A DNA stretch of 63,981 bases, filler included, from Basidiobolus ranarum (lineage: Eukaryota), in NCBI GenBank assembly GCA_040143965.1. It is 4 parts of 4 records of this genome, joined end to end, with 100 filler letters (N's around TTAATTAATTAA, not from the genome) between each part and the next. Parts side by side here need not be neighbours in the genome. Positions count along the whole stretch, not along the records: positions 1 to 16,096 come from JASJQH010000354.1; 3 more parts are not named here. One strand, given 5' to 3'. Position 1 is the first letter of the stretch; every line of letters begins with the position of its first letter. Shown here piece after piece: positions 1-48,462 of this stretch. A program made the translations under genes and the position numbers. The notes beneath the pieces are model-generated. The model saw only the letters and a program-made list of their open reading frames with translations. It was not told the DNA's origin and searched no databases.

Positions 1-1536
1 CGCGAGCCTACCTATCTCTACTACCTTTGCCTCTGCCGGAGAGGTGGGGCCAGCCTGGTTATATCCTGAGCTAGGAGAATTGAAAAGAATCAAAGTTAAA
101 CTCAATTACTATCGATAGCTTGTCCATTTTTTCCTTGATCCCGTTATCGTTGAGTCTTCTCCATAGTGTTTTTGTCCTGCAAAAGAGAAAGGAAATCAAT
201 GCCAATATCGGTATTATACAGGTGTTGTTAAACTTGTTTTTGGAAATGTATGAAAGATATTCTAATTCCAAACCATTGTAGCTCTCATTCGATGTGTTAG
301 CAAATAATCCTGAAATCATTTCGATATCAGTGCTTCTGCTGGGTTCCTATATTCTTTTCTGCGCCATTTGGTTGATTTTCTTCAGCAGAGTATTCCTCGT
401 CAAGAATTCCGATAACTTTGGGAATGAGGGTATTGCCACTACCATTCTAAAACCTAAAAAGTGTGCTCAATTTCTAACACTCCCTCATCTAGCGGTCATT
501 GAATCTCCAACTCAACACCTTACTGTTTTCTTTATCTTTGTCTTTTTCTGGACAACATCAGTATTTAACGGAGTTCATAGGTTTGAATGTTGACATCACT
601 GTTTGTATGTATATCGCATAATTGACTATTTTCAAAACTTTTAGAGCTACAGTTGCTGGTGTTGTTTCCCAATGGTATTTCCACCGGTAATTTCTAGCAA
701 TATATTCCCATTTTTTCCACTGTAGCTAACGTTGATCTTGATCTAGACATGAATTTGGAGCTGCACAGAAAGTGAATTCCACCTATAAATCTTTGAACAA
801 ATCACTTACTACCTCTTTGGGTTCGATCTGTCTTGGCGGTCTAATTATGTCCACAGCGCGTTTTTGGACGTACGCTTGCAGTTTTTTAAAGAGCGTATGA
901 GCAATTTGCAAATTTGATACTTATCAGTATAGCAAATCGCTTACACATATCTGTTTAGATGGTCAAAGATTCACGTAATACAATTCTAATAGCGCTTACA
1001 AGCTTATTGAATTTCTTGGTTGGAATACTGGATATATTTAACCGGTATACAATCACGTTTGTTGGGCTCACCGGTGAAGGTTTTTGCCCTTCAGCCCGAA
1101 TGACTACACAGATAATGCGAAGAAGCTTGACGCATAATTTAGTGAATGGTATGGTTACCTTAGAATTAGTATACATATTGGTTACTAATATACTCTGCCT
1201 GTAGGATTCCTATTGCGCATCTTGTTGTTGATGGGTTCGGGGAGTGTATCTTTTTTCTCCGGCTTCATTTGCTTCAATTTCGCGACTTTTAACTTGGAAT
1301 CGCCCAATGGTTATATTAGCGGCTTGGTGGGCTTTCTGATACCATTCTTCCTACTCCAATTTTTTTCGTACATAATGATCAATATGTGAGTATTATCTAA
1401 TGCTAACTCATTTGCAAATACCTTGGAGCTAATTCTTTTAATCAGTGCGGATGCTACGTTCCTATGTTACGCGGTTGATCTTGACTCTAATAGCTGCCAC
1501 TATGCACCAGCTAAAAAAGCTTTTGTAAGTAGTTAG
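1..1536 (+). CDS. Choline transporter-like (CTL/SLC44/Pns1) membrane protein, multi-exon, 5'-partial
   Basis: Hydrophobic exon ORFs (294-593, 959-1204) with family-like motifs FFWTTSVF, FNRYTITFVGLTGEGFCPSA and a final exon DATFLCYAVDLD...AFVSS ending at TAG 1534-1536; GT..AG introns lie between them. Confidence 0.7.
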
Positions 1537-2339
1537 AGAGTTTATCTTTCTTAGTTTAGTTCTACTACTGCGACTTTTCACTATAACATGGTTATAGCCA
1601 TCCTGACATCATCCACCTCCCTTAATCATTCTCCTAGTTCATTCTTGAGCCTCTTTTTCACACATCGAAAGCTCAACAAATTGGAGAAGACACTTAACTA
1701 TAAAGAACTTATACATGTTTGTAGAATATCTCTATCCTGTCTTCGATTTTGCTCTTAATATACATCGCTACAGTTTTAAATCGAATCCATTTGATATATA
1801 CAATCCCAAGATATTCTTAAATAATGCATGGATAAAGAAACTTAGTGACTGCCAATTTTCAATCAAGATCCATAGTTAACCATAGAAGTATTGTTCTTTC
1901 AATACTCTTGGAAATCATCCTAAGTTCTTGTATAGTGCTACTTGAGTTAATAGACCGGAATGCTCTGTGGTACAATGCTCATCTTAAAGGCTCTTCTACA
2001 GATACTGATAGAAACCAAAGATATAGAGAGTGGCCACAGTTAATAAATATTGTAATCAGAAGATGAGTTTAATAATTACAAAGGGTTACGATATCAACAA
2101 AAAAACAATTGATTGAAAACTCCATAATAATTGACTAGATTTGCGTGAGGGATGTTGATGAGGCTGATGGTGTGACGATTTGGAGAGAGGTTCACTAGTG
2201 AGATGAAAGAATTAAAAAAACCGTAAAAACTGAACAAAGGTGGGGTTCCAGACTAACGGATACGATTTTAGCTGGGAAAAGTCTTGAAATTGTATTGACC
2301 ATAAGGTCATAAGGAGTCGTAGTAAATAATAGTAGTCAC

Positions 2340-5300
2340 TTAATGGTGTTTTTCTCTCTTTTTCCCTTTTTTTCCTTTTCTCCCGCTTTTCACTGAAGTA
2401 TCTTTATGATGAAGCTTCTGCTTTTTACTCGCCCCTTGCGATCTGCGTGAAGATTTGATCGGTGACGAATTGCCAAGTTTCCCTTCATCGTCAGAATCGG
2501 AGAATGAATTGATATCCGAAAGTTCACTCAAAGAATCATTGCTACTGTATAGCGGCGACATTTTGCCACTTGACCTTTTGTGACGACTGGTGCGGGATTT
2601 GGAGTGTGACGAACTAGACCCAGATTTACGCTTCCGATGGCTATCAATACGTTTAGCCTTGCTTGATATTTTGTTGGTAGCTATTTCGAGCATTTCATCT
2701 GTATCTTCTGCACTATCATCCATGTCGCTATCGTGACTAAGTCGGTTCATTTTCAGAGTAATCTTGAGTCCTGATTTCTTTGACACTGAATAGTCAGTTG
2801 TAGGGGTCGAGGGAGAAGCAGATTTGGCCGACCGCTTAGGTCTTCTACTCTTGCTATGCAGTTGAGGATTAAGTACCAAATCAATGAGGTGATCGAGTCT
2901 CCGTGTAACTACAGATTCTTTCAGCCAGATACCGTTGGCACGGGCTCTGTGTTCTGCGTTGGCATCTTCCACCTCCGAGGCGCTACTATCATCATTCTTT
3001 TTGGTAGAAATGTCTCCCACATTACCATTGAGATTGTTCCGTAAATGCTCACCAAAAGGCAGGGAAGGATCTGCCATAATTAAATCCCCTTGGTTAAGGC
3101 CGTATTTTGCCACTGCTACAAGCAAAGGTTTATCATGAATTTTACGATCCCACCATTTCGGTAATCCGGGGGTAGATCGTGAATATGACAAATACTCGTC
3201 TAGTTGAGGGTCACTTAAGACTCGATCGCGAATGGCGCTCAGCATATCCACGCGCTTTAATAATCTTCTTGACCTTTCCATGGTAAGGACCACACCTTCA
3301 TTTTCCCCGGTGCTGGCAATGTCATTACTGTCACCATTAATAACAGACTCCGCGGTTTTAATCATATGAACAAATTGAGTATTCAACAAAGAATCCGGCT
3401 TTTTATAAAGAGTTGCCAAATCTCGGAATTTGTCCCAATTTCGAGAACCATCTGAATTGCTCTCAACGCCAAATGACATTAATGTCCGGTAGAAGTCAGC
3501 TCTGTCTTTTTTGCTCCAACGTAATGCTGCCTCTTCTTGTCTTACCCGCATTTTCTCTACTTGAAGTTCTTCTTTACGCTTCATTTTCTCAATGAGCTGC
3601 TGCTTCTTTTCCTTCTCCTTTTCTGAACTCCGGCTTTTACGCTGCTCGGCTTGGAGTTCTCGCTGGAAGGCAGCTATAATACGACGTAAGCGCACACCAA
3701 TATCCGCGCGGGATGGCCAGATGAGAGCCTGTGTATGATCACCTGGCTGATCAGCAGCATCAAGGACTTCGTTATTAGTATTCGTATCTTGACTGTTGGT
3801 TTGCTCCAACGGACCGTTCTGGTCGGGATCATTTCCCTCATCTTTATCGATAAACTTTCGGCCATAAAAGCATAACTCCGGGTCTTGTCGGAGCTCTCTG
3901 TACTGCTGATACCCATATTTACAAATACCAATAAGCAAATCACGGTCCTCGTCGACTCCCCACCAATCGGCAGGCAATGCTCCGTTAACCTTTGGAATTT
4001 TCACACTCTTCGTATCCTGAAGGTTCTGCTGCACAATCTTTTCTCGGATTGTATAGAGCATCTGAATACGAAGTAACAGGTTTCTTCCCTTTTTATCAAT
4101 ATGATCGAAATACTCTTGCGGTGCTTCGATCATGAACGTTTTGAACTCGGCAATTTGTCTTTTAGTAGCACCAGGATAAGGTATGAATTCGTCACTGTCA
4201 TCTTCCTCGGTTTTCTCAGTTTCAGCGTCCTCTGGTAATCCGGGAATGGGATCTTTTTGAAGAAGAGTATTGATATCTTCTATTAGTTTTACGTCTTCTT
4301 CCGATGTCTTCTCTACACTTTTAAGGACATGTTGTATCATAGAGCGAGTCACCGCTCGTAGATCTTTTTCACTCCGACGAGGGAATTGCTCTAGCATTTG
4401 TTCCCATTTACCATAACCGTATATCATTAGCTTACGCTCAAGTTTAATCTTTTCAGCAAAACTCCATATCCGAGGCCCTTCGGTAGACTTTCTTCTAGAG
4501 TTAGTATCTTCTGACTCTTCATATTCCGAATTGGGCTCAGAGATGTCCGAATTCTTCAGACTCCGAGTTCCAAAGCGTTGAACCTGACGTCGTAATCTTG
4601 GCTCATGAATGATCAGGGGATTGTCTAGTTCGTCCTCTTCAACATCCATATTTGCTTTCTTGGCCAGTTTGTCCCAGAAGTCTGGATCGTCGATATCGAC
4701 GTCGTCTGAATTACCTACACTAAAAGTAGCCTTGGAAAAGACGGAACCCTTTTCATTTGTCTCATGTTTGATGACAGTAGTACGGCGTTGAAGAATCTGG
4801 TCAATATCTTCTTCACAGAATTTAGCGCTCTCATGGTCATCACTCAGCAAAGCACCATACGCACCCTTTTTCAGCAATTCTTCAACTTCTTTCTTACTTA
4901 GGGAGGATGAGGGATTGGATATGTCGGTGTCATCACCATCTTGCATGGCGGAGGCGGCATCCATCTTTTGAAGTACTGCTTTATCTAACCCAAGTTTGAA
5001 CCCAGCCCTATCGAACATCTCTTTCTCGTAGGTATTGCGCGTGATCAGGCGATAAATCTGCACCGGCTTTGTTTGACCGATTCGATGGCAACGTGCTTGA
5101 GCTTGAAGGTCGTTTTGAGGATTCCAATCACTGTCATAGATGACACAGGTATCAGCTGCAGTCAGATTGATACCCACACCACCAGCGCGAGTACATAGCA
5201 AGAATACGAATGAATCGGGTGTGGTAGAGAACCTATCGATAGCTGCCTGACGTAATTCACCGCGAACTGACCCATCGATTCTTTCAAATCCATAATCTCT

Positions 5301-7735
5301 AGCACGCAAGTAATCAGCTAAAATGTCCAAGCAACGAGTCATCTGAGAGAAAATCAACACTTTATGGCCTCCGTCTTTTAACTTTTTGAGAAGCTTGTCA
5401 ACAAGCACCAGTTTACCAGATGCTTCAATCATGTACTTTAGATGATCTTCGCTAGAGGTAACCTTTAACTCTTGTAAAATCCGGTCTTCAGCTCCTTGAA
5501 TCAAATAAGGATGTATACAGCATTTCCTTAACTCCATCATTACGTTGATCAAAGAAGGTCCGCTGTAAGAGTTTCCCTTAGAGCCTTTCTTTAACCAGGT
5601 GAAATTCTTCTCTAAGATGGCACGATACCACTTCTTCTGTACACTAGTCAATTCAACTTCTATTACTGTCTCCTCTTTCATGGGAATACTGGTTTCGACA
5701 TCCTCTTTGAATCTACGCAACATCAAAGGCTTTAACAGCTTCTGAACTTTGTCAACCTCGCCGGATGTTTTCAAGGATCCATAGTCATTGATGAATGCCT
5801 TCTCATCATAGAATCGATCTGGTTGTAAAAAGTTCAATAAACTAAACAACTCGTGCATGGAGTTCTGCAGAGGCGTGCCAGTGAGTAATAGCCTATGCTC
5901 CAGATAGTAAGTCTTCAGCATCTCCAAGACTTTCGAGGTTTTGTTTTTAAGTCGATGTGCCTCATCAAACACCGTCACTCTCCATTTGATAGGACGTAGT
6001 TGGATGGATCCGGAAGTGATCATCTCGTAGGTAGTGATAACAACGTCAAACTTGTAGAAATTGGGAACAATCTCACCATTTGCATCTTTGTAGTAGAACT
6101 CCGAATCGACAATCAGGTTGCGAGCAGTCGCACTTCCATGAAATACGATGGCATTCATCTCTGTCCAGCCTCTAAATTCTCTCTCCCAATGTGGGATTGT
6201 CGACAGTGGAGCCACCACTAAAAAGGGCCCCTGCACATTGTAAGTTCTAAACACTTCATACAGAAAAGAGACCGATTGAACGGATTTTCCAAGACCCATT
6301 TCGTCAGCCATAATACATGATTGATGATTGAACCAGCAGAACAAAAGCCAATTGAGTCCTTCTAATTGGTAGGATCGGAGTTGGTTGCCGTGCTTGAAAA
6401 GCGGGGATTGTTTGAGCTGACCAAATCTACTTTTTACAGGGCGAGGGGTTGGCTTTTCGGGTCTAGTAGGGGGGAGCACACGGCGTTGGTGAAATTCTTC
6501 GATTTTCTGAGGGTCAATTTTCAAGACGTCTTCTTTCTTTTCCCAGGTGGATTGATCGTATGGAGTACCACACCACTTGACCAAGAAGTAGATACTCTCT
6601 TCATTTGCGTTTTCTAGAGATAACTCTCCCTCATCGATGATTCGATCGATTTTTAAGAAAGTGGGATTGAACGCTTGATCCTCTCCCCATTGAGTATCCC
6701 AGTTTTGTTTATCTAGAAACCTTTTTATCCGATTTTTGCCTAAATGCTCTTGCTCCACCCGCTCCCTAGCAACCCATTCAGCATGATAATAGCTCATATT
6801 CTATTACGTTTGTTAGCGTAACTCCACATATGTGAGGAAGATAAGTTTGCGTTACCTTGTACTTCACCATCAGCTCCTCCTTCGATGAGTCTAAAGGGGA
6901 GTATCTATGTGCCAGCAATTTCTCGACTGTCTACAAAACACTAAGACATGAGTCTTACTTGAACAAGGATAATAGAAAGAAGAGTCTTACCCGTTCGCCC
7001 ATGGGAATCACTACCGGATCGTATGGCACCGCCCACTTCGACTCGTGTTTAACTTTTGAAGGTTTGGCTTTCTTGCTTTTGTTTCTATTCCTCGATGGCC
7101 CATCTTCGTCACTGTATAGATCTGAAAGATCGCTTTCAGACTCTTCTTCTGACGTGGCTGATAAACCCTGGTTTGGTCCAAAAAGAAATTGATGTAAGTA
7201 AATGCTGAAATTCACCCAGTAGATATTGAGTCATATACCATATCAGAAGCCTCGGATTCTGAAGCGTTTGTGATTTTTGCTGAACTAAATATAAGCATTC
7301 ATTAGTACAAGCGGAGAGCTGCACATACCATATCACCATGTTAAATAATTACCTTCCAAAGATATCCGACTCTATCATCGAGTCAGTACCCAGCACAGAA
7401 GACTCAGATCTCATGGGAAATGACTTTATACGAGGTTGTTTCATGGCGACGAAGCCACTATCACTATCACTGCTGCTACTATTACTACTTTCTTCATTTT
7501 CGGATTTGGTGTTAGGAGAAAGCTCATGCTCTGAAAATGGTGAGGGTGCATCGAATATGTCCTCGCATAATTGGTTGACTTGGGGAGTTTCATTTGGAAC
7601 TCCATTTTCTTGATGGTTTTCAATTGGTATATTAGGATGGCTCGCTACTTGTGATATTTCATCTACTTCCATGTTATTTGTAGTATCATTCTCAAGAACC
7701 TTGTCATTAACTAGACTTCCAATCTGTCTCTCCAT
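2340..7735 (-). CDS. Chromodomain helicase DNA-binding remodeller, CHD6-9/Kismet type (multi-exon; large last exon 2340-~6800)
   Basis: Tandem chromodomains (YHAEW, FLVKWCGTPYDQSTWE); SNF2 motifs ADEMGLGKS, DEAHRLKN, LLLTGTPLQN, DSDWNPQNDLQAQARCHRIGQ; FCEEDIDQILQRRT and WW..DRDLLIG..KYGY segments typical of the CHD7-like C-terminus. The 5' exons and ATG 7735 are inferred from splice signals. Confidence 0.9.
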
Positions 7736-10180
7736 GCTTAAACTTTACAAGCAGAATACGAAAGTTTCGGGACTATTTCTCGGCAAGTATAAAGGTTGTG
7801 GGGGGATAAAATAAAGAGTCTCACTAAACACTTTATGAAGCCAGATGGAATAAATACTCGCGAAACTTTTCAACTTGACAAAGGTTCGACTGGCTGTTTC
7901 TTTTACGTGAGAATGGTTTACTATATCGAAGAAAATAGAACCTTGAACTTGTTTCGTATTTCCTAGATTGAAATAATCTTTGGTCCGATGAAGTTCAGCT
8001 ATTTCAAACTGGTGTAAGTAATACAATAGTTGGGCGTATCAATAGCTCCTGCTTTTCCGCTTTTCTTGTGGCGAGTAAACAAAGGAGTATATCTAAAGTG
8101 AGTGAGAGATAAAGGTTAGTTTTTTTCTTACTTTAAACCATCATCTTTCAAGAGTCATCGAAGATAGTTAGATGAATGGTTGCTATAAGCAGTAAGAATT
8201 GGACCTACTTTTTTTTTATAACAATGAGAAAGAATTTCTGAGTAACGACGCGGATCAAGTTACTTTTCCACACTTCTCTTCCCTATTTTCCAAAGTTGAA
8301 TATAGTTGACCCTCCCTAAAAAAATGAGGTTTTTAAAAATGCCCTTGGGGAAAAATTTCAATATTTTATTTAATAAGGGCCTAAAAAAGAATGAAATGAA
8401 AGTAAAAATCGAAATAGGTGCATTTTTCAAATACTCTAAACATACGTCTTGGTGGATTTAAGCAATGATGATTCCCTATATTCACCAATATTCATCTGAT
8501 TCTCACTTTTTTAACCGTACCACTGGTTTAGGTGTGTGCCAGGTTGAATGCATGCTTCTCTCAATATCCCTCGCTCAAGATATTATTACAACACAATTGG
8601 GTTGAGAAAGAATGAGGGTTCAGTTTGTTTGGAAAGGGTCCATTGCGTGATCGAATATGGTTGCAAGTGAGGAATACACTCGATACATGGTCAGCGTGCG
8701 ATTTCCATGACGAATATGCTGGAGTGATACACAGCTATAGTTACAGGAATCGATTGTTGGTGAAGAAATACATCGACCCAAACCCATGTATATTGTATAT
8801 ATAGATCAAGACTCACCAGCGATAGAAAGATTTATGTTTATAAAGAGAATGATCAGAAGCCCAGTCGAGATGCTCTCTTTTAGCATTCCCAACCTCACCA
8901 TTTATTGAAATTCTAATACATCCGAGTCTTTAATGACCGCTGGAACAACTGGACGAAACAACGTAGGAGTAACGGGAAATGGATTCAACAACATTTAAAT
9001 ATTAAAATAAGATGCGAGGATCTCGTGGATTTCATGGATAACATTATCTTGTCTACACGAAGCGTAAACAGTCACTACCAACATAGAAGTTGCCAAGCTT
9101 AGTAGGATCAGGCGTCAATACGAAGTTTTGGGAAAATAATCGAGGGACTGTCTCTTTGCCGTACTTCACCGACCCGGTGACATTTACCAAGATGCTGAAT
9201 GGGCCCTCGGTGGGTCCAGTAACTGCATAAAAAGTATTTAGTATAGATGCTCTACAATATCGTGATCATTTATGCCTATTATATTTGGTGCAGAGGTTCT
9301 ACTAAACATGTATATACTCACAAGGCAATGGATGACAGTCGAAAGCTTGTATTTCATGGACTGTGGAGGGTAATTTTTGATAAAATTCGGAAAATGGAGT
9401 TACGCCAGAGTATGCATTTCCTAAAAACACCCATAGCGAGGTTGATATGTATATCCTTCGAGAATCTTGTGAAATCAAATATATGAAGACGTACCATTCC
9501 AAACGATGGCCGAATTGTCACGGTAAAACTTTCCTAGAAGCTAATTAAGTAAACAGTTAAGGTTAGACTTGGAAAAAGCATGTATCAACCCGTAAGGGTA
9601 AATCGCACTATAACAAACAAGGTGAACTCCTTGCGGTACCTACGTGTCTTTGATCATCGTACAACTTATAATACAGGTCTACGAACTGCTCCGCACCTTT
9701 TGCTGAAACATCTACAAGTGCTTTGATATCCTAAATGTCGGTATGTAATATAGATCCACAACAAACAGTGCACACCAATAGAAGATACATTAGTCCATAA
9801 ACTAATTTCTCCTAACTTAAGATAATCATCGCTGCAATATAGCGGTTGAAAGCATTCCGACTTACCGCTGAAGACATATGTTGGATTTATACAATAATAG
9901 TGGGATATCAGTTCTTCGCTGATAGTAAGAAGTGAAGTTCGCGCGCCCTCAAGCCGCTGCCTTAAGAATATGAACTGACCAGATTTTTTTCCATGAGTTA
10001 ACTAACAGTCAATTCATATTTTGATTAGATTTGTTATTGTTCCTCACGACTTCATGCATTGGAAATCAAATGAGACAAAAAAAAGATTCACTCAATTTCG
10101 ATGATCGACAAATTTCAAGATATTCACAATACTCGATTTTAATGATGGGTGATTTTCAAGATACCAATAATGCTTTCATA

Positions 10181-11969
10181 CTATGGATTTTTTCTGGTTT
10201 TATGAACTGGGAAAGCAACACAAAATAAATCTTTACCTCTAATGATTAAGGAGTGGCCATCTGGACTCCATTCTAAACCAACTGCTTCAAACTTATCGGT
10301 GGTAATTTCAAAGGGCTCGCAACCAGTCTTTTCACACCATAAGTATATGTGATTGCCGCCGCACACGAACGCCACTTGATCTGGGTTGATGGGATTCCAT
10401 TGAACTGCTCGAATAGGGAATGCTTGCTGAATAGCACAGATCTGCCGAACATTAGGGATATCTATTAACCACAGGCAAGTAGGGATGCTCTCTAAAGTCA
10501 TTGTGTGAATAGATATAAATCGATAGAGATTATCCGAGACTCAAGGTTACCATTGATGACAGCTACCAAGCGACCATTTGGGTTAAACTTTATCATGCCG
10601 ACTCCCAACTTGGGTGAGGGCTTTCCAACTTCCGGCTTAACGGCAGGAATCATAGCTGGAGGATAGACAGGCTCGTCTGTAGACATACTTCTTAGTTGAG
10701 TTTTCACATGAACATTCGTTGAAAATATACATACAATGAATTTCCACCCGTCCTTTCGATTTTTCCAAGAAGTTTTGGCAATAAATAGGCTGGGAAGAGA
10801 GGAGAATAAGCAATAATGGTCAGAGGATATTTGTTCAACCACCCACTCACCATCTGGGGATTGTTCGGTAGATCATCACACGCAAACTCTATAAGAGGGC
10901 TCCATGTGTAATGATTTAAAAAACGTATCTGTATTCCTTTCTGTTAATACTTCTGACAAGTCAGGGCTCAGTGTACATGAAGCTTGCCTGTTGATCATAG
11001 CTTCCGATAGCTAGAAATTGACTTGACGGTGACCACTGAACTGATTTGATACCCAAACCAAACTCATAAGCGGTATAGGAACGCTGAAGTGAACCATCTG
11101 CTGTATATATCAGCAACTTGTACTATGCCAAAATCATTAAATTAGGTTCGAAGTGAACAGGGTAAGCAATCTAAACTACAAACATTCAAGGGAGTGTCCC
11201 AAACAGCTAAGTAGTGACCATTGGGTGACCATTCCAAGTTTTCTAAATCAATAGTTTCGGGTTGTATACGCTATACAAAGAAAATGAATCACTACAAGAT
11301 AAAATGACTATAATGTGATGATTCTTCTAACCTTACATACAGCCCAGGATTTACAGTCATAAATACTGATAATATCCTTACTGTCACGTTTCTCTACAAT
11401 AGCTACATAGCGTCCATCACTTTGAAAAGCCATTCCTAAATTTCAACCAAGATAAACCACTGATAGCTCCGCAAACGAGTAAAAATAAAGTACCTTTATC
11501 CGAATATTTAGGATATTGAATGGACATATGTTCTTCTCCTGTCAAAGACCAAATAGTCATTCTCATCTGAAACATAAAAGCACCATACTTTTAATACAAT
11601 ATCTTAGTCAACATATCTTCGCCGGTACTTTACCTGGAACTCGCTCACCGTTACGATATGTCTACTATCAAAAGCCCATCTTGCCGAAGTTAAACCAGCG
11701 TCACCTTCACTGATCTGCCCATGCCAATCTCTATCATCGATGTCGAAAACATCTACAGTACCGTGTTTATAGGAAGCGCATATAATCAAACGTGAATCGT
11801 TGGACCATTCCAATACGTTGATGGGTTTATCTAAATGGTGCATTCGAGTGATCTTCAACGTATGAACACTACGAATGACCAAGCGTTTTTCAAAAATGGC
11901 AGCAAGGAACTCACCATCGGGTGAAAATTTACAAAATCCTGATAGTTTGAAGAAATCCGTGAACTCCAT
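10181..11969 (-). CDS. WRAP73: WD40 protein, WRAP73/WDR8 homologue (multi-exon)
   Basis: N-terminus [33 protein letters not shown] resembles WRAP73/Wdr8; several WD repeats ([24 protein letters not shown]) across exon ORFs. Confidence 0.85.
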
Positions 11970-12325
11970 TAAAAATTATCCTCTTTTCTAAACGGTTTCT
12001 CAACTTCTCATGAAGGAAGATACGACTGAAAAGATGATGGTAACTTCAAAATAAATGACAAACAAGTTTACGGATATTGATCCAATAGCCATTGTTTCTT
12101 TCTTTTCACAGTAAACAAGTCATTCGTATCACATGATAACATTACTGTTGTTCATTACATAGGTTTTGGAAGTAAATCAAGTATAAAATTCAATGAAGGT
12201 ATTGTTAAGTATGTACATTTATTAATTTATTTTCAAGTGTCAACGAGACTCCAGAATATACCTGTAAGATTAACGGTCAGTACAAAGTTGCAAGGTGATA
12301 AATAGATTTGAAAGTGAAGATGAAA

Positions 12326-12389
12326 TCAGATGGTGATGCATGTTGTATAAAATAATCATGTTGTTCATACGAACGAGACAAATCATCAT
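12326..12389 (-). ncRNA. Box C/D snoRNA copy 1 (shortened variant), SNORD33/snR55-like
   Basis: ATGATGA...GTCTCGTTCGT-ATGA...TGATTA...CATGCATCACCAT-CTGA; both guides are complementary to conserved 18S rRNA. Confidence 0.85.
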
Positions 12390-12544
12390 TTAAAGAAAAA
12401 AAAAATCAATACGGGATTAAATACATACCAATAAGTAATTGGCCAGCTGGAATCTTGAATGGAATTGTCTAGTATGTAGACTAAAAGACATGTTAGATTT
12501 TGCAATATTTGGGATGAAGGCGTGGGGGTTATGAAAGTAAAGAA

Positions 12545-12618
12545 TCAGATGGTGATGCATGTTTGTATTGAAATAATCACAGAATTGGTTCATACGAACG
12601 AGACGGACAAATCATCAT
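12545..12618 (-). ncRNA. Box C/D snoRNA copy 2, SNORD33/snR55-like
   Basis: C box ATGATGA, D' ATGA, C' GTGATTA, D CTGA, with two 18S antisense elements. Confidence 0.9.
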
Positions 12619-12780
12619 GTAAGAGGAATGGAATTGGCTTATGGTGGAAATAGATAATTACCTGATGTATGTACAACGCTAGCATATTACAGATGTCAGA
12701 CGGGAACTGTGATCTACAAACTAAATTATGGTTAACATACGAAATATTTGGAGTCAAATAATAAGAATTCCTGAGTAAGA

Positions 12781-12854
12781 TCAGATGGTGATGCATGTTT
12801 GTATTGAAATAATCACAGAATTGGTTCATACGAACGAGACGGACAAATCATCAT
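12781..12854 (-). ncRNA. Box C/D snoRNA copy 3, SNORD33/snR55-like
   Basis: Same 74-nt C-to-D sequence as copy 2. Confidence 0.9.
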
Positions 12855-13026
12855 ATAAGAGTAATAGGGTAATGTAATAGAATAGAGTAGACATTTACCT
12901 TGTATGTAGATAACTGATATCTCATGTGTACACTCTGCATGCGTTAGCTGCGATCTAACATGAAAACTGAACTAACGTTAGTGATGATTCTTGAAAGCCA
13001 AACAATAAGCAGTAATGAGTGAAGAA

Positions 13027-13100
13027 TCAGATGGTGATGCATGTTTGTATGTAATAATCACAGAATTGGTTCATACGAACGAGACTGGACAAATCATCAT
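13027..13100 (-). ncRNA. Box C/D snoRNA copy 4, SNORD33/snR55-like
   Basis: Same boxes and guides; small indels outside the guides. Confidence 0.9.
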
Positions 13101-13254
13101 GTAAGAGAAAAAATAATAAGATTGAGAAATCAATTTACCTGTTACGTATATACAGGACGCGGACTAACAGGCCATGCGTTCTATTGATTTTCTAAGTAGC
13201 TTTGAATTAGTATTACTCTTTAATGACAATGATCTTGAGAATCAATGGTAAAGA

Positions 13255-13328
13255 TCAGATGGTGATGCATGTTTGTATGTAATAATCACAGAATTGGTTC
13301 ATACGAACGAGACTGGACAAATCATCAT
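13255..13328 (-). ncRNA. Box C/D snoRNA copy 5, SNORD33/snR55-like
   Basis: Same C-to-D sequence as copy 4. Confidence 0.9.
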
Positions 13329-13810
13329 GTAAAAAGAAAGGGATTGAAATATACTGTTACTGGTACTTACTTTTTTATCACGGTCCTGATAAGAATTGAA
13401 GGTGGGAATCTTCCATCATTTCGCACACCTTATATAATAAATCAAAGGTAGGGGTCCCCAGTTCGAAAAGAGAAATGGAAAGATAACTTGACTAGGATTG
13501 GCCATAAGACGGAGTAGCCTCCAGAGATACAAATTACCTGATACGGTATCTATGAACTTCGGATACGAGCTTAGACCCTGTCGAGGTTTGAACCTCATAT
13601 TATCTTTCACAGCTTCTTTATGCAGATTATTCAACATAATGGCTATACTTGGATCGTAGCTCCATGTAATCACTAGATTTCTTAACGTAGCAAGATATAC
13701 ACATGGTGATCAAAAGTTTTATTAAAAATCTACTCTAAATGAAAATTATACAGGTGCTTAAATACTTCAAAGTAAAAGGAATGCTTGTATATTAACTACT
13801 AAATAGCGAT

Positions 13811-14371
13811 CTATTCAGTCCTTGGAGCAATGAATAGTGCCTCTGAATCCGCTAAAACATTGCCTTTATGATCTTCCACTTGCCCTTTGACAAACCCTTT
13901 TCTACCTTCTATTTTAGATACTTCAGCTCTAACCACCACAAAGTGGTTGGCGAATGTTGGCCGGCGGTAGTTAAGGGAGAAGTTCGCAGTGAATCCGACA
14001 CCACCAGGTAAGTTTGGAATAATAGTTCTTCCCAATGCCTCATCCAACAAGGATGCAATCATACCTCCATGAATGATACCTTTATGGCCACAGAGCTTAG
14101 ATCCCAGATGGACGATTATAGCCACCTTCTGTCCGTCTGTGGAGCGGAAGATTAATGGCTCCAGGTCGATCTTTCCTTCACCACGTAGTGTATGCCAAAC
14201 TAAAGTATCAGTATGCTTAAAGGTTTCAGGGGTATCCACTGGAGATAGTTCCTCTTCACTATAGTCAGCATCATCGCGTAGTGCTTTGGTCACCTCTAAC
14301 AATTCCCGAGTCTCTAACAAGGAGTTATTTTCAACGTTATAAGGTTCGATCTGTACTTGACTAGATACCAT
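13811..14371 (-). CDS. PaaI/THEM4-like hot-dog-fold thioesterase
   Basis: LCGHKGIIHGGMIASLLDEALG motif and FTANFSLNYRRP; first in-frame ATG at 14371. Confidence 0.85.
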   Translation of the reverse strand: MVSSQVQIEPYNVENNSLLETRELLEVTKALRDDADYSEEELSPVDTPETFKHTDTLVWHTLRGEGKIDLEPLIFRSTDGQKVAIIVHLGSKLCGHKGIIHGGMIASLLDEALGRTIIPNLPGGVGFTANFSLNYRRPTFANHFVVVRAEVSKIEGRKGFVKGQVEDHKGNVLADSEALFIAPRTE

Positions 14372-14887
14372 GATATATAATGGAAATGTTGATGTTTGTT
14401 CACTGGTCACTTTGCATTATTTATACTAACCCATTAATCGACAATTTAAAGTTCATTGGTAGATTATGATGCTAACTCCTGTTTCTTCATTCACACTTCT
14501 CACATACTCCAATAGGAACCTTTGCCGACCGCCGACCATCACTCTGATTAGATCTGAGGAGATACAGAAATAAAGTCCCTAATTACTGCATTGCCAGCTA
14601 TCAGTTACCACGTACAAATAAAACCATATCTGACACTAAAACCACGTTGAGTTTCCAAAAGAGTCGTTGGCTGGTTCCAAGGAAGGAATGAAGTATGCAA
14701 TTCTGCTTACCTATTCATTTTGCCGTGGTATCCGAGTATCCCTATCGGAGATTTCGGAAGCCGAAAACGTGATGCGCGTGAGTTGAAGATTTTCATTACA
14801 TTGGGTAATAGGGTCCAAAACATCGTACAACGCTGTATCGACTCAATGTAGTTAGTCGTTCTCAAAGCTCTGGTGTGGATTCATATT

Positions 14888-15001
14888 TGATACTTTGAGC
14901 CATTATAAACATTAAACTTAATCAACAATGATACCTTGAGTTAAAGCACTGAATTTAATCAACAATGATACCTTGGGTTAAAACACTAAACTTAATCAAC
15001 A
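14888..15001. repeat. Tandem repeat, 3 x ~37 bp
   Basis: Unit TGATAC(C/T)TTG(A/G)G....AAACA(C/T)T(A/G)AA(C/T)TTAATCAACA repeated three times. Confidence 0.75.
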
Positions 15002-15305
15002 CTGGTCGAATGTATTTATATTCTTTACTTGAGTTACATTGATTATTATAGGTTTTCTTAAGCGTCTTGGGGTGTTTGTTTAATCACGTTGTAGTAGCTG
15101 AGGCATCTACAGGAGTGCTCATATGATCAGAAAAGTTCATGGAAAAGATTGGTTTATCGCTAAACTTTACAGAATATTCCCACTTCTATATCTTATGGTT
15201 TATTTAGTGGGGTTGTGAAATGTCTGCTTATAAAGTGTCGATCATTTGTAGATTAAGTGCAGTTGATATTTCATCCAAACAATTATTAAACTTATCTATA
15301 GTCAC

Positions 15306-15827
15306 TCAGCAAATAATACACCTAAAGCCTTCATTTTTTCGAAGTTCAACCAGCAGGCAGCCTCGATTTGGCGTGTCCACCGAATATGTAAGATTCTTCT
15401 GTCTCAGCCAAGTTTCAACTGCAGGCTTTAGTTTTTGGACCCCGTCCGCGGAGTGGTTTCCCATTCCTACTATGATGGTCAAGAAGTCCACATTCTTTTC
15501 TCGTTTACAGAGTTGTATACGCTCTTCCACCTTTAGAAGAGCTTCTTTCACATAAAGTCCATGTAAGTCAAGCTTATCCTTTGGTAAAGAGATATTATTA
15601 ACTTTAAACGTCAGCTCAACCGCTTTGTTGTTGGCCATATCCATCTTTCTACCATATTCCTTTCCTCTTTCTGACTCTTCCTTAGCCCCTTGTTTATCTC
15701 CACTTTGATAGAGCGCTTGGGACCTTGAAAAGCATTCGTTACGAAGTTTAGCGTATTTGTTGGCCTCTTGACGGTAACGCTCACCGCTAGCTTCTAATGA
15801 TTTTGGTGAGGATAATAAGTTTCCCAT
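15306..15827 (-). CDS. DUF1771 + Smr-domain protein (173 aa)
   Basis: Helical RNECFSRSQALYQSGDKQGAKEES (DUF1771-like); Smr motifs LDLHGLYVKEA, IIVGMGNHS, NRGCLLV; first ATG at 15827. Confidence 0.85.
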   Translation of the reverse strand: MGNLLSSPKSLEASGERYRQEANKYAKLRNECFSRSQALYQSGDKQGAKEESERGKEYGRKMDMANNKAVELTFKVNNISLPKDKLDLHGLYVKEALLKVEERIQLCKREKNVDFLTIIVGMGNHSADGVQKLKPAVETWLRQKNLTYSVDTPNRGCLLVELRKNEGFRCIIC

Positions 15828-16096
15828 TAATCTGTATGAGTTCTGAGTCAACCTTGAAAAAGGGTTACCTGATTCGATTATTTCATGGTAAGATTGGAAA
15901 GGGTCAGGGTTAAAAAATATTAATCCAAAAACATTGACACGTCATGATGGCAGATGCATGCAATGAAGCAGCAACAAAGAGATGGTATTCAGCAAAGATT
16001 TATTGTCTCGGACGTTGTTAGTAGAAAGCATCATTATCGATCTTAATTTTAAGATATCAAGGTTAAGTGGGGGGGGGTAGGTGGAGTAAGGAGGAG

Positions 16097-16196
16097 NNNN
16101 NNNNNNNNNNNNNNNNNNNNNNNNNNNNNNNNNNNNNNNNTTAATTAATTAANNNNNNNNNNNNNNNNNNNNNNNNNNNNNNNNNNNNNNNNNNNN
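16097..16196. other. Artificial contig linker (N-run + TTAATTAATTAA)
   Basis: 100-bp spacer with a six-frame-stop core, identical to the other two linkers. Confidence 0.95.
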
Positions 16197-32235: not shown

Positions 32236-32335
32236 NNNNNNNNNNNNNNNNNNNNNNNNNNNNNNNNNNNNNNNNNNNNTTAATTAATTAANNNNNNNNN
32301 NNNNNNNNNNNNNNNNNNNNNNNNNNNNNNNNNNN
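32236..32335. other. Artificial contig linker
   Basis: N-run + TTAATTAATTAA. Confidence 0.95.
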
Positions 32336-47523: not shown

Positions 47524-48362
47524 AGCAAGTTTTAGTAAACATTAGAGCAATGATGAATATCCACCTATATACTGACCCCCCTGACTCTCACCCACTTGAT
47601 TCATTGAATAATCTGCTTCACTTATTTGAATTCGTTTGTAGTAATATTAGATACTCCTTTTGAAATAAACCATACATGTTGCTTTTTTTCACCATTCAAG
47701 TTGCCGTTTCTTATAGCTATCCTTGACAAACCTCTTTAGAATCATGTTTCGTGACAGCCTTAATGGATGGATTGAATTCATTGCTTTCCGAACTACCTAC
47801 GGTACAATCACTGTTTTAGCTAAAATAATCTTGCTGCTTCCACATCACAGCATGGTTAATAAGTCACTGTAAGTTGGAACTATATGCGGAATTCATTTTT
47901 TCTCTTCTTTTACTTCCTATGGAATTTGATGTATTAGATTCAAATTGGAGATAATAGCTTGAATCATATTTGAATGGAGAATTGATGTGGTTTAATTCAG
48001 ACTAGTTGACAAACCATCGTGTATAATTCGATTTTAAATCAATTTAGGGAATTTTATGGGATGTTAAATTATTTTCTCATCTTAAAAATAATTTTTCAGT
48101 TTGATATCCATAAATGGTATACAAAGAAAGTATAAATAAGCCGGTTCTATCACTATTGATCCTCACGACTGTACTTTACAGGATTATGTATATAGTACAT
48201 TCCCAGTCTTTGTTTCCCAACAAAGACACTAATACCAAGCTGGTTGACGAGTGGTAGTGCGCTGTCCGTAAAGGGAAGTGTGGGATGTGTTCGATTAGCT
48301 CCTCGGAACTTCTGAACCTTCTCAGTTGATGATCTTGCCAGTCGATTATTCCAACGACTAGG

Positions 48363-48462
48363 NNNNNNNNNNNNNNNNNNNNNNNNNNNNNNNNNNNNNN
48401 NNNNNNTTAATTAATTAANNNNNNNNNNNNNNNNNNNNNNNNNNNNNNNNNNNNNNNNNNNN
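48363..48462. other. Artificial contig linker
   Basis: N-run + TTAATTAATTAA. Confidence 0.95.

What the first reader, a model, noticed from the sequence alone, without database searches (positions are those of the whole stretch)
12215..13440. Non-coding host gene made of five intron+snoRNA cassettes of a single snoRNA
Seen: five ~74-nt repeats at a ~220-245-bp period. On the minus strand each sits alone in an intron with canonical splice signals, separated by 52-56-nt exons with no evident ORF, with a TATA box upstream and AATAAA-like signals downstream. Established: non-coding hosts such as GAS5/UHG carry intronic C/D snoRNAs, usually of different families. Inference: the locus arose by repeated duplication of an intron-exon unit, amplifying the dose of one guide RNA. 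Exons 12662-12713 and 12899-12954 still resemble each other at their ends. Protein-centric annotation would miss this locus.
Basis: partly seen in the sequence, partly recalled or inferred. Interest (0 to 1): 0.8.

Follow-up and report, generated by a model that had tools for sequence, protein, structure and literature searches.

The report
Five-copy intronic snoRNA array, fungal host gene
A short non-coding gene in a Basidiobolus-like fungus appears to carry five copies of one ribosomal-RNA methylation guide, each in its own intron; this is a well-formed but ordinary example of a known way of making such guides.

Summary
Five minus-strand copies of one box C/D snoRNA lie at 12324-13332, spaced 228-246 bp start to start. 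Boxes C, D', C' and D and both guide elements are identical in 5 of 5 copies.

Each copy sits between a GTA-type donor 34-40 nt upstream and a YTRAY branch site 47-51 nt downstream, followed by an AG. This leaves internal exons of 51-56 nt. The spliced product has stops in all frames, and its longest ATG ORF is 31 aa. The flanks are about as similar as shuffled sequence, yet the full splice layout is present in 4 of 4 spacers and in under 1% of shuffles.

The box D guide is the snR55/U33 guide for the 18S site equivalent to human U1326. The box D' guide is 11 nt of perfect complementarity to 18S, 57 nt downstream, which fits the human SNORD30 site A1383.

The usual fungal neighbours snR57 and snR61 are absent. 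Expression and splicing could not be tested, because no genome or read data were available.

Non-coding one-snoRNA-per-intron hosts are known in fungi, and same-snoRNA intron arrays are known in mammals (SNORD115/116). I rate this a new member of a known kind, of modest interest.

The parts
13430..13436 (-). TATA-like element (TATATAA) upstream of the first donor; putative promoter of the host gene
   Evidence: It lies 60-66 nt upstream of the first donor. Function is inferred.
13371..13425 (-). Putative exon 1. The 5' end is unknown; only the 3' end at the donor is defined.
   Evidence: The start coordinate is arbitrary.
13191..13370 (-). Putative intron 1 (180 nt): GTAAGT donor, ACTAAT branch site, AG at 13192-13191 (alternative AG at 13181-13180)
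13253..13332 (-). snoRNA copy 1 (box C/D, double guide)
   Evidence: Rfam RF00472 34.7 bits; alignment
13139..13190 (-). Putative exon 2 (52 nt)
12955..13138 (-). Putative intron 2 (184 nt): GTAAAT donor, ACTAAC branch site, AG
13025..13104 (-). snoRNA copy 2
   Evidence: Rfam RF00472 35.4 bits; 99% identical to copy 1
12899..12954 (-). Putative exon 3 (56 nt)
12714..12898 (-). Putative intron 3 (185 nt): GTAAAT donor, GTTAAC branch site, AG
12779..12858 (-). snoRNA copy 3
   Evidence: Rfam RF00472 35.3 bits
12662..12713 (-). Putative exon 4 (52 nt)
12480..12661 (-). Putative intron 4 (182 nt): GTAATT donor, TCTAAC branch site, AG
12543..12622 (-). snoRNA copy 4
   Evidence: Rfam RF00472 35.3 bits
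12429..12479 (-). Putative exon 5 (51 nt)
12261..12428 (-). Putative intron 5 (168 nt): GTATGT donor, ACTGAC branch site, AG
12324..12393 (-). snoRNA copy 5. It is the divergent copy (81-84% identical to the others) and is shorter in the non-guide spacers. All boxes and both guides are intact.
   Evidence: Rfam RF00472 32.8 bits; alignment
12215..12260 (-). Putative last exon, with two AATAAA signals (12231-12226 and 12223-12218). The 3' end is unknown.

Best explanation
The locus is a small RNA polymerase II gene on the minus strand whose product of value is in the introns, not the exons. A TATA-driven transcript of about 1.2 kb is spliced at five introns of 168-185 nt. Each intron carries one copy of the same roughly 74-nt box C/D snoRNA.

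Steps inferred by analogy with known intronic snoRNAs:
- The core snoRNP proteins assemble on the C/D and C'/D' motifs during splicing.
- The lariat is debranched and exonucleases trim it to the protein-protected snoRNA.
- The roughly 300-nt spliced exon RNA has no coding role and is probably short-lived.

The mature snoRNA has two guides for 18S rRNA. The 13-nt element before box D directs 2'-O-methylation of the U equivalent to yeast U1269, N. crassa U1265 and human U1326. The 11-nt element before box D' directs methylation of an A 57 nt downstream, equivalent to human A1383.

The five cassettes arose by repeated tandem duplication of an intron-plus-exon unit. They raise the yield of one guide per transcript.
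For: Shown by sequence:
- Boxes C (AUGAUGA), D' (AUGA), C' (UGAUUA) and D (CUGA) and both guides are invariant in 5 of 5 copies. All differences fall in non-guide spacers.
- The snoRNA bodies are 94-99% identical among copies 1-4 and 81-84% identical to copy 5. Intron flanks and exons are 45-63% identical. The means for the two intron flanks are 0.545 and 0.581, against 0.515 and 0.539 for shuffled sequences. So selection or gene conversion acts on the snoRNA only.
- The architecture is kept despite that divergence. The donor lies 34-40 nt before the snoRNA and the branch A 47-51 nt after it in 5 of 5 copies. The layout is present in 4 of 4 spacers against under 1% of shuffles, and in 0 of 4 on the other strand.
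- The spliced exons have stops in all three frames, and the longest ATG ORF is 31 aa.
- The box D guide is letter for letter the Rfam snR55/Z10 consensus.
All 12 of the 12 loci I tested are eukaryotic SSU rRNA (550-754 bits). The two sites are separated by a 44-nt gap in 34 of the 35 loci, which puts the predicted Um and Am 57 nt apart.

From papers:
- A table passage in PMC2780460 equates snR55, N. crassa CD34, plant snoR34 and U33, with target 18S-Um1265, intronic.
- A table passage in PMC6466398 gives SNORD33A as the guide for 18S-U1326.
- Passages in PMC5027482, PMC7668251 and PMC5389715 give SNORD30 as the guide for 18S-A1383. 1383 minus 1326 is 57.
- Section 5 of PMC3596301 reports that fungal snoRNA clusters are hosted one per intron in poorly conserved, non-coding transcripts.
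Against: - There is no RNA evidence of any kind.
- The Rfam score is below the family's gathering threshold (35.4 against 50), and nothing in the window reaches any gathering score.
- No terminal stem flanks boxes C and D, and the folds are no more stable than shuffles (z 0.27 to 1.26).
- The splice-layout test used criteria chosen after I had seen the data.
- The five cassettes share ancestry, so they are not five independent observations.
- Orthologous loci in related genomes could not be examined.
- The start and end of the transcript are guesses.
Confidence: 0.75

Rival explanations
1. The five snoRNAs are released from one polycistronic precursor by endonuclease and exonuclease processing, without splicing. 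S. cerevisiae handles its snR57-snR55-snR61 cluster this way, and so do plants. On this reading the splice-like signals are relics or are used only inefficiently.
For: - PMC3596301 section 5 says these clusters arise from unspliced transcripts in S. cerevisiae and close relatives.
- In the metagenome yeast-like locus L100, the spacers of a snR57-snR55-snR61 cluster keep TACTAAC motifs, but little or no exon lies between acceptor and donor. Partial loss of introns of this sort therefore occurs.
- No RNA data here prove splicing.
Against: - All five donors, branch motifs and acceptors are intact and correctly ordered, although the surrounding sequence has drifted to near-random similarity.
- The donors (GTAAGT, GTAAAT, GTAATT, GTATGT) look at least as strong as the four I read by eye in the neighbouring WD-repeat gene (GTAAAG, GTACTT, GTTAGA, GTTTGT).
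- This genome is intron-rich: four introns lie within about 800 bp of that gene.
Confidence: 0.12
2. The host is not a separate non-coding gene. The five introns belong to the 5' UTR of the WD-repeat protein gene whose ATG lies at 11969 on the same strand. A less likely version places them in a long 3' UTR of the thioesterase gene that ends at 13811.
For: - All three units are on the minus strand.
- Only 291 nt separate the last acceptor (12261) from the ATG at 11969.
- The flanking ORFs match Pfam WD40/beta-propeller families and 4HBT thioesterase.
- From recall: snoRNAs in UTR introns of protein genes are common.
Against: - Two AATAAA signals lie 30-40 nt into the last exon (12231 and 12223).
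- Eight upstream ATGs lie between 12260 and 11970, in addition to those in the spliced exons.
- A TATA element lies just before exon 1.
- An AATAAA at 13723, about 90 nt after the thioesterase stop codon, argues against the 3' UTR version.
Confidence: 0.08
3. The array is a silent or decaying duplicate, and the working copy of this snoRNA lies elsewhere in the genome.
For: - No expression data exist.
- The rest of the genome could not be searched.
- Copy 5 is shortened.
Against: - There are no substitutions in any box or guide across the five copies, while the flanks are randomised. That pattern is the opposite of neutral decay.
Confidence: 0.05

Closest known systems
Fungal snoRNA cluster II host gene (snR57-snR55-snR61), as described for Ascomycota, Basidiomycota and Rhizopus oryzae in PMC3596301
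   Same: - It contains a snR55-type snoRNA with the same box D guide.
- It has one snoRNA per intron of a short-exon host with no long ORF.
- Start-to-start spacing of about 190-215 bp in metagenome examples L100 and L004 is close to the 228-246 bp here.
   Different: - Here all five introns carry the same snoRNA.
- snR57 and snR61 were not found within 11900-13800 at E up to 10, nor anywhere in the window at E up to 0.1.
- The snoRNA has gained a second guide, before box D'.
Mammalian SNORD116/SNORD115 arrays and the rat RBII-36 locus (tandemly repeated introns of a non-coding host, one copy of the same snoRNA per intron)
   Same: - The array is made of one snoRNA family only.
- It was built by tandem duplication of an exon plus an intron with its snoRNA, in a non-coding host. 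This rests on the abstract starts of PMC9369261 and PMC4742849 in the search listing, and on a reference title in PMC11028025.
   Different: - From recall: the mammalian arrays are imprinted, brain-specific and much larger, and their snoRNAs have no rRNA target.
- Here there are five copies of a canonical 18S methylation guide in a fungus.
UHG/GAS5-type non-coding snoRNA hosts, and the five UHG-like clusters of Neurospora crassa (PMC2780460)
   Same: - The host is non-coding with only short ORFs, and the snoRNAs are intronic (passages).
   Different: - Those hosts carry different snoRNAs in different introns.
- The paper states that most N. crassa snoRNA genes are singletons (passage).
SNORD30 (U30), the vertebrate guide for 18S-A1383
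   Same: - The predicted target nucleotide of the box D' guide here lies 57 nt after the U33/snR55 site. That matches human U1326 and A1383.
   Different: - It is not the same RNA. Rfam snoU30 scores only 22.3 bits against a gathering score of 45.
- In human the site is assigned to the box D guide of SNORD30 (passage). Here the guide sits before box D' of a snR55-type snoRNA.

Membership tests
Box C/D snoRNA | Box C (RUGAUGA) near the 5' end and box D (CUGA) near the 3' end | tested here: met
   AUGAUGA and CUGA are invariant in 5 of 5 copies.
Box C/D snoRNA | A guide of at least 9-10 nt directly upstream of box D or D', complementary to rRNA, with the target opposite the fifth nucleotide | tested here: met
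   Box D guide: 13 pairs to 18S, 2 of them G-U. Box D' guide: 11 Watson-Crick pairs. Both were checked against 35 eukaryotic 18S fragments. The nine-pair rule is from a passage in PMC7668251.
Box C/D snoRNA | Short terminal stem bringing boxes C and D together | tested here: not met
   No 5'/3' pairing appears in the minimum-energy or centroid folds of any copy with 10-nt flanks. From recall: many intronic snoRNAs lack this stem.
Box C/D snoRNA | A stable 60-100-nt RNA bound by fibrillarin, Nop56, Nop58 and Snu13 | not testable with these tools
Rfam RF00472 snosnR55 (snR55/Z10) | Score at or above the curated gathering threshold (50 bits) | tested here: not met
   The five copies score 32.8-35.4 bits. 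The match is carried by box C and the box D guide. The 5' half differs because it holds another guide.
Rfam RF00472 snosnR55 (snR55/Z10) | Guide for the 18S U equivalent to yeast U1269, N. crassa U1265 and human U1326 | tested here: met
   The guide is identical to the model consensus and pairs with the conserved 18S motif. The family equivalence is from PMC2780460.
UHG-like non-coding snoRNA host gene | One snoRNA per intron, with canonical donor, branch site and acceptor | tested here: met
   Met in 5 of 5 introns. Shuffle control.
UHG-like non-coding snoRNA host gene | Spliced exons lack a long or conserved ORF | tested here: met
   Stops in all frames; longest ATG ORF 31 aa. Conservation across species was not testable.
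UHG-like non-coding snoRNA host gene | A spliced, polyadenylated transcript exists | not testable with these tools
Fungal cluster II (snR57-snR55-snR61) | snR57 upstream and snR61 downstream of snR55 in the same host | tested here: not met
   No snR57 or snR61 match within 11900-13800 at E up to 10, or in the whole window at E up to 0.1. As a positive control, the same models find all three snoRNAs in L100, two of the three in L004 and L016, and snR61 only in L009.
Rfam RF01283 snoU30 | Score at or above the gathering threshold (45 bits) | tested here: not met
   22.3 bits, E 0.026 on a 101-nt query. Only the target site appears to be shared.

The most novel reading that the evidence does not exclude
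In this Basidiobolus-like lineage the pan-fungal mixed host gene (snR57-snR55-snR61) has been remodelled into an array of a single snoRNA. That snoRNA is a fused double guide. It couples the universal snR55/U33 guide to a guide for the 18S adenosine that vertebrates methylate with SNORD30. No guide for that site is listed in the N. crassa set: the string '18S-Am13' occurs 0 times in PMC2780460. None of the 26 snR55/U33-type snoRNA matches recovered from metagenomes carries this guide. If this reading is right, the array is a lineage-specific route to high dosage of a newly combined guide, and the two sites 57 nt apart in one 18S domain may be modified, or chaperoned, by one particle.
Probability: 0.3. 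Interest if true: 0.4.

Novelty: new member of a known kind. Interest (0 to 1): 0.3.

Why it matters
The locus gives a clean, unannotated snoRNA gene model for an early-diverging fungus. My one search for snoRNA together with Basidiobolus found only an unrelated paper.

It shows two things in a fungal rRNA guide:
- The duplication of an exon plus an intron with its snoRNA, known from mammalian orphan snoRNA arrays, also operates here.
- Guide elements are recombined between snoRNA families, a theme already raised for fungi in PMC2780460.

It also predicts two testable 18S methylation sites. It does not open a new question, because the mechanism and the architecture are both established.

Tried and rejected
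- **Whole genome:** none is held for this window, so copy number elsewhere and the organism's own rDNA could not be examined.
- **Rfam at gathering thresholds:** 0 matches in the whole window. The family assignment rests on sub-threshold matches.
- **Decayed sixth copy:** I looked in the last exon, where AGTCTCGTT resembles the box D' guide, and upstream of exon 1. Local alignment scores were 16-21, against a shuffle mean of 16.8 and maximum of 24, so I rejected this.
- **Terminal stems:** none found.
- **Metagenome scan for the box D guide:**
  - 26 of the 121 matches have a box C at a plausible distance. The other 95 are probably chance 17-mers or truncated.
  - None of the 155 loci held carries the box D' guide.
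  - Among the exact 17-mer matches only L063 has two, 127 nt apart. Rfam also finds two SNORD33-family copies each in L067 and L117.
  - This gave no relative of the array itself.
- **Earlier findings of this scan:** nothing by place, by sequence or by words.
- **Literature search for snoRNA plus Basidiobolus:** 1 paper, unrelated.
- **Protein-coding reading of the repeats:** ORFs of 40-79 aa over the repeats are repeat-generated. They cross the snoRNA bodies, and I did not pursue them.
Full report
**Setting**

The window is four pieces joined by runs of N at 16097-16196, 32236-32335 and 48363-48462. The finding lies in the first piece, 1-16096. GC content is 38%.

The ORF just upstream on the same strand (13811-14371, 186 aa) is a 4HBT thioesterase. 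Its only database relatives are proteins of Basidiobolus ranarum (72% identity) and B. meristosporus (86% and 74%, partial). So the DNA comes from a Basidiobolus-like early-diverging fungus. This rests on a single protein.

Everything below is therefore sequence-level evidence.

The repeat finder gives four 86-nt copies spaced 236, 246 and 228 bp, plus a fifth 229 bp further on. Two motifs each occur exactly five times in the window, all on the minus strand. These are the 17-nt string that ends in box D and the 15-nt string that ends in box D'. Shuffles expect 0.21 and 0.12 matches.

The five copies are 13332-13253, 13104-13025, 12858-12779, 12622-12543 and 12393-12324.

**The repeats are box C/D snoRNAs**

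- **Rfam.** At gathering thresholds Rfam finds nothing in the window. With E-value reporting, all five copies match snosnR55 (snR55/Z10, RF00472) end to end at 32.8-35.4 bits. E is about 1e-3 over 1.9 kb and 6e-5 on a single copy. The gathering score is 50.
- **Why the score is low.** The match is driven by box C and by a box D guide that is letter for letter the family consensus. The 5' half of the RNA is different.
- **Conserved elements.** In the alignment of the five copies, AUGAUGA (box C), an 11-nt element plus AUGA (box D'), UGAUUA (box C') and a 13-nt element plus CUGA (box D) are all invariant.
- **Where the copies differ.** Every difference lies in the spacers between these elements. 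Copies 1 and 2 form one subtype, copies 3 and 4 another, and copy 5 is shortened.
- **Folding.** No terminal stem is present, and the folds are no more stable than shuffles. From recall, this is common for guide-rich intronic snoRNAs.

**Targets**

I built a pattern from the two guides alone, as reverse complements with R/Y where G-U pairing is possible and a variable gap between them. I scanned the prokaryote genome collection with it, hoping for eukaryotic contamination.

- I tested 12 of the 35 loci with Rfam. All 12 are eukaryotic SSU rRNA at 550-754 bits.
- In 34 of the 35 loci the gap between the two sites is 44 nt.

The box D guide forms 13 pairs, 2 of them G-U, and places the fifth-position target on the U of GUGG[U]GG. 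The box D' guide forms 11 Watson-Crick pairs and places it on the second A of ACGA[A]CGAGAC. The two predicted nucleotides are 57 nt apart.

Papers support the assignment:
- N. crassa CD34 = snR55 = plant snoR34 = U33, with target 18S-Um1265 (table passages in PMC2780460).
- SNORD33A guides 18S-U1326 (table passage in PMC6466398).
- SNORD30 guides 18S-A1383 (passages in PMC5027482, PMC7668251 and PMC5389715).

The human distance is also 57 nt. The box D' guide therefore most likely targets the A1383-equivalent site. This inference assumes there is no indel in the human sequence over that stretch.

The RNA is not a SNORD30 homologue, since snoU30 scores 22.3 bits against a threshold of 45. It is a snR55-type snoRNA that also carries a guide for the site served by U30.

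**Intron-exon architecture on the minus strand**

| Intron | Coordinates | Length (nt) | Donor | Branch motif |
|---|---|---|---|---|
| 1 | 13370-13191 | 180 | GTAAGT | ACTAAT |
| 2 | 13138-12955 | 184 | GTAAAT | ACTAAC |
| 3 | 12898-12714 | 185 | GTAAAT | GTTAAC |
| 4 | 12661-12480 | 182 | GTAATT | TCTAAC |
| 5 | 12428-12261 | 168 | GTATGT | ACTGAC |

- Each branch site is followed by an AG 12-22 nt downstream.
- The donor lies 34-40 nt before the snoRNA. The branch A lies 47-51 nt after its 3' end in 5 of 5 introns.
- Internal exons are 52, 56, 52 and 51 nt.
- From recall of work on mammalian intronic box C/D snoRNAs, a position about 50 nt upstream of the branch point is optimal for splicing-coupled snoRNP assembly. 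That would suit an RNA without a terminal stem. I did not check a paper for this.
- I read four introns of the neighbouring WD-repeat gene by eye. They are about 55-70 nt long with weaker donors (GTAAAG, GTACTT, GTTAGA, GTTTGT). The genome is therefore intron-rich, and the host donors are good by local standards.

**More than chance, and under selection**

- The snoRNA bodies are 94-99% identical among copies 1-4 and 81-84% identical to copy 5. The intron flanks and exons are 45-63% identical.
- The mean identity of the two intron flanks is 0.545 and 0.581, against 0.515 and 0.539 for dinucleotide-shuffled versions.
- The full layout is present in 4 of 4 internal spacers despite that drift. 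On the opposite strand it is present in 0 of 4. It occurs in 0.3-1.0% of 5000 shuffles per spacer.
- Two caveats apply. I chose the criteria after seeing the data, and the cassettes share ancestry.

**Non-coding host**

- Joining the exons gives about 312 nt with stops in every frame and a longest ATG ORF of 31 aa.
- A TATATAA lies at 13436-13430.
- AATAAA occurs at 12231 and 12223, 30-40 nt into the last exon.
- The next gene on the strand, a WD-repeat protein, starts at 11969. The 291 nt between the last acceptor and that ATG contain eight ATGs. This argues against the array being that gene's 5' UTR.
- An AATAAA at 13723, about 90 nt past the thioesterase stop codon, argues against a 3' UTR reading.

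**Comparison with what is known**

- PMC3596301 (section 5 read) describes three pan-fungal clusters. One of them is snR57-snR55-snR61. [quoted passage not shown]
- I gave 20 of the 25 loci holding those matches to Rfam.
  - Cluster II was recovered in fungal-type contigs: L100 has snR57, snR55 and snR61; L004 has snR55 and snR61; L016 has snR57 and snR61; L009 has snR61.
  - The Z194-Z195-Z196 arrangement was recovered in plant-type contigs (L018, L067).
- In the present window neither snR57 nor snR61 is detectable.
- None of the 26 snR55/U33-type matches, and none of the 155 loci held, carries the box D' guide.
- The N. crassa table holds no '18S-Am13' entry, and that paper says most N. crassa snoRNA genes are singletons.
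- Arrays of one snoRNA per intron of a non-coding host are well known in mammals. The evidence is the SNORD116/IPW-A exons (abstract starts of PMC9369261 and PMC4742849 in the search listing), SNORD115, and rat RBII-36 (a reference title in PMC11028025).
- From recall: Drosophila Uhg-type hosts also carry several isoforms of one guide in successive introns. I did not check a paper for this.

**Verdict**

The locus is best read as a UHG-like non-coding host with five cassettes of one double-guide 18S methylation snoRNA, formed by tandem duplication.

Both the architecture and the duplication mode have clear precedents. The locus is therefore a new member of a known kind with two local twists: an array of one snoRNA in place of the mixed fungal cluster, and a recombined guide pair. 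Expression, splicing, methylation and conservation in related genomes all remain untested.

Noticed in passing
window 48165-48362 (+): A U3 snoRNA gene. Rfam RF00012 gives 43.5 bits, above the gathering score of 34, at E 1.7e-8. The match covers model positions 1-194 of 219 and is cut at its 3' end by the end of the third piece of the window (the N run starts at 48363). In the whole-window scan it appeared only as a weak Fungi_U3 match.
   Followed up: partly
window 16097-16196, 32236-32335, 48363-48462: Three paired runs of N (44 + 12 bases + 44) divide the window into four pieces of about 16 kb. The window is therefore a join of separate contigs or masked stretches, and neighbourhood arguments hold only within a piece.
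   Followed up: no
L100:93-602 (-), metagenome contig: A yeast-like snR57-snR55-snR61 cluster. Its spacers keep TACTAAC about 56-57 nt after each snoRNA. After snR57 the acceptor AG overlaps the next GTATGT donor, and after snR55 no AG lies between the branch site and the donor. The exons are therefore vanishingly small or lost. This recalls the loss of intron status discussed in PMC3596301.
   Followed up: partly
L063:2001-2144 (-), L117:239-593 (+), L067:246-638 (+): Other eukaryotic metagenome contigs carry two U33/snR55-type copies close together. They are 127 nt apart in L063 and about 270-310 nt apart in L117 and L067. Local duplication of this snoRNA family is therefore not unique to the window.
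   Followed up: no
L121-L155 (prokaryote genome assemblies): At least 35 short contigs filed under bacterial and archaeal genome assemblies are eukaryotic 18S rDNA fragments, that is, contamination. All 12 of the 12 loci tested match SSU_rRNA_eukarya at 550-754 bits.
   Followed up: partly
window 13152-13147 (-): A second TATA-like motif (TATATA) lies inside putative exon 2, 48 nt upstream of snoRNA copy 2. It could be chance or an internal start site.
   Followed up: no
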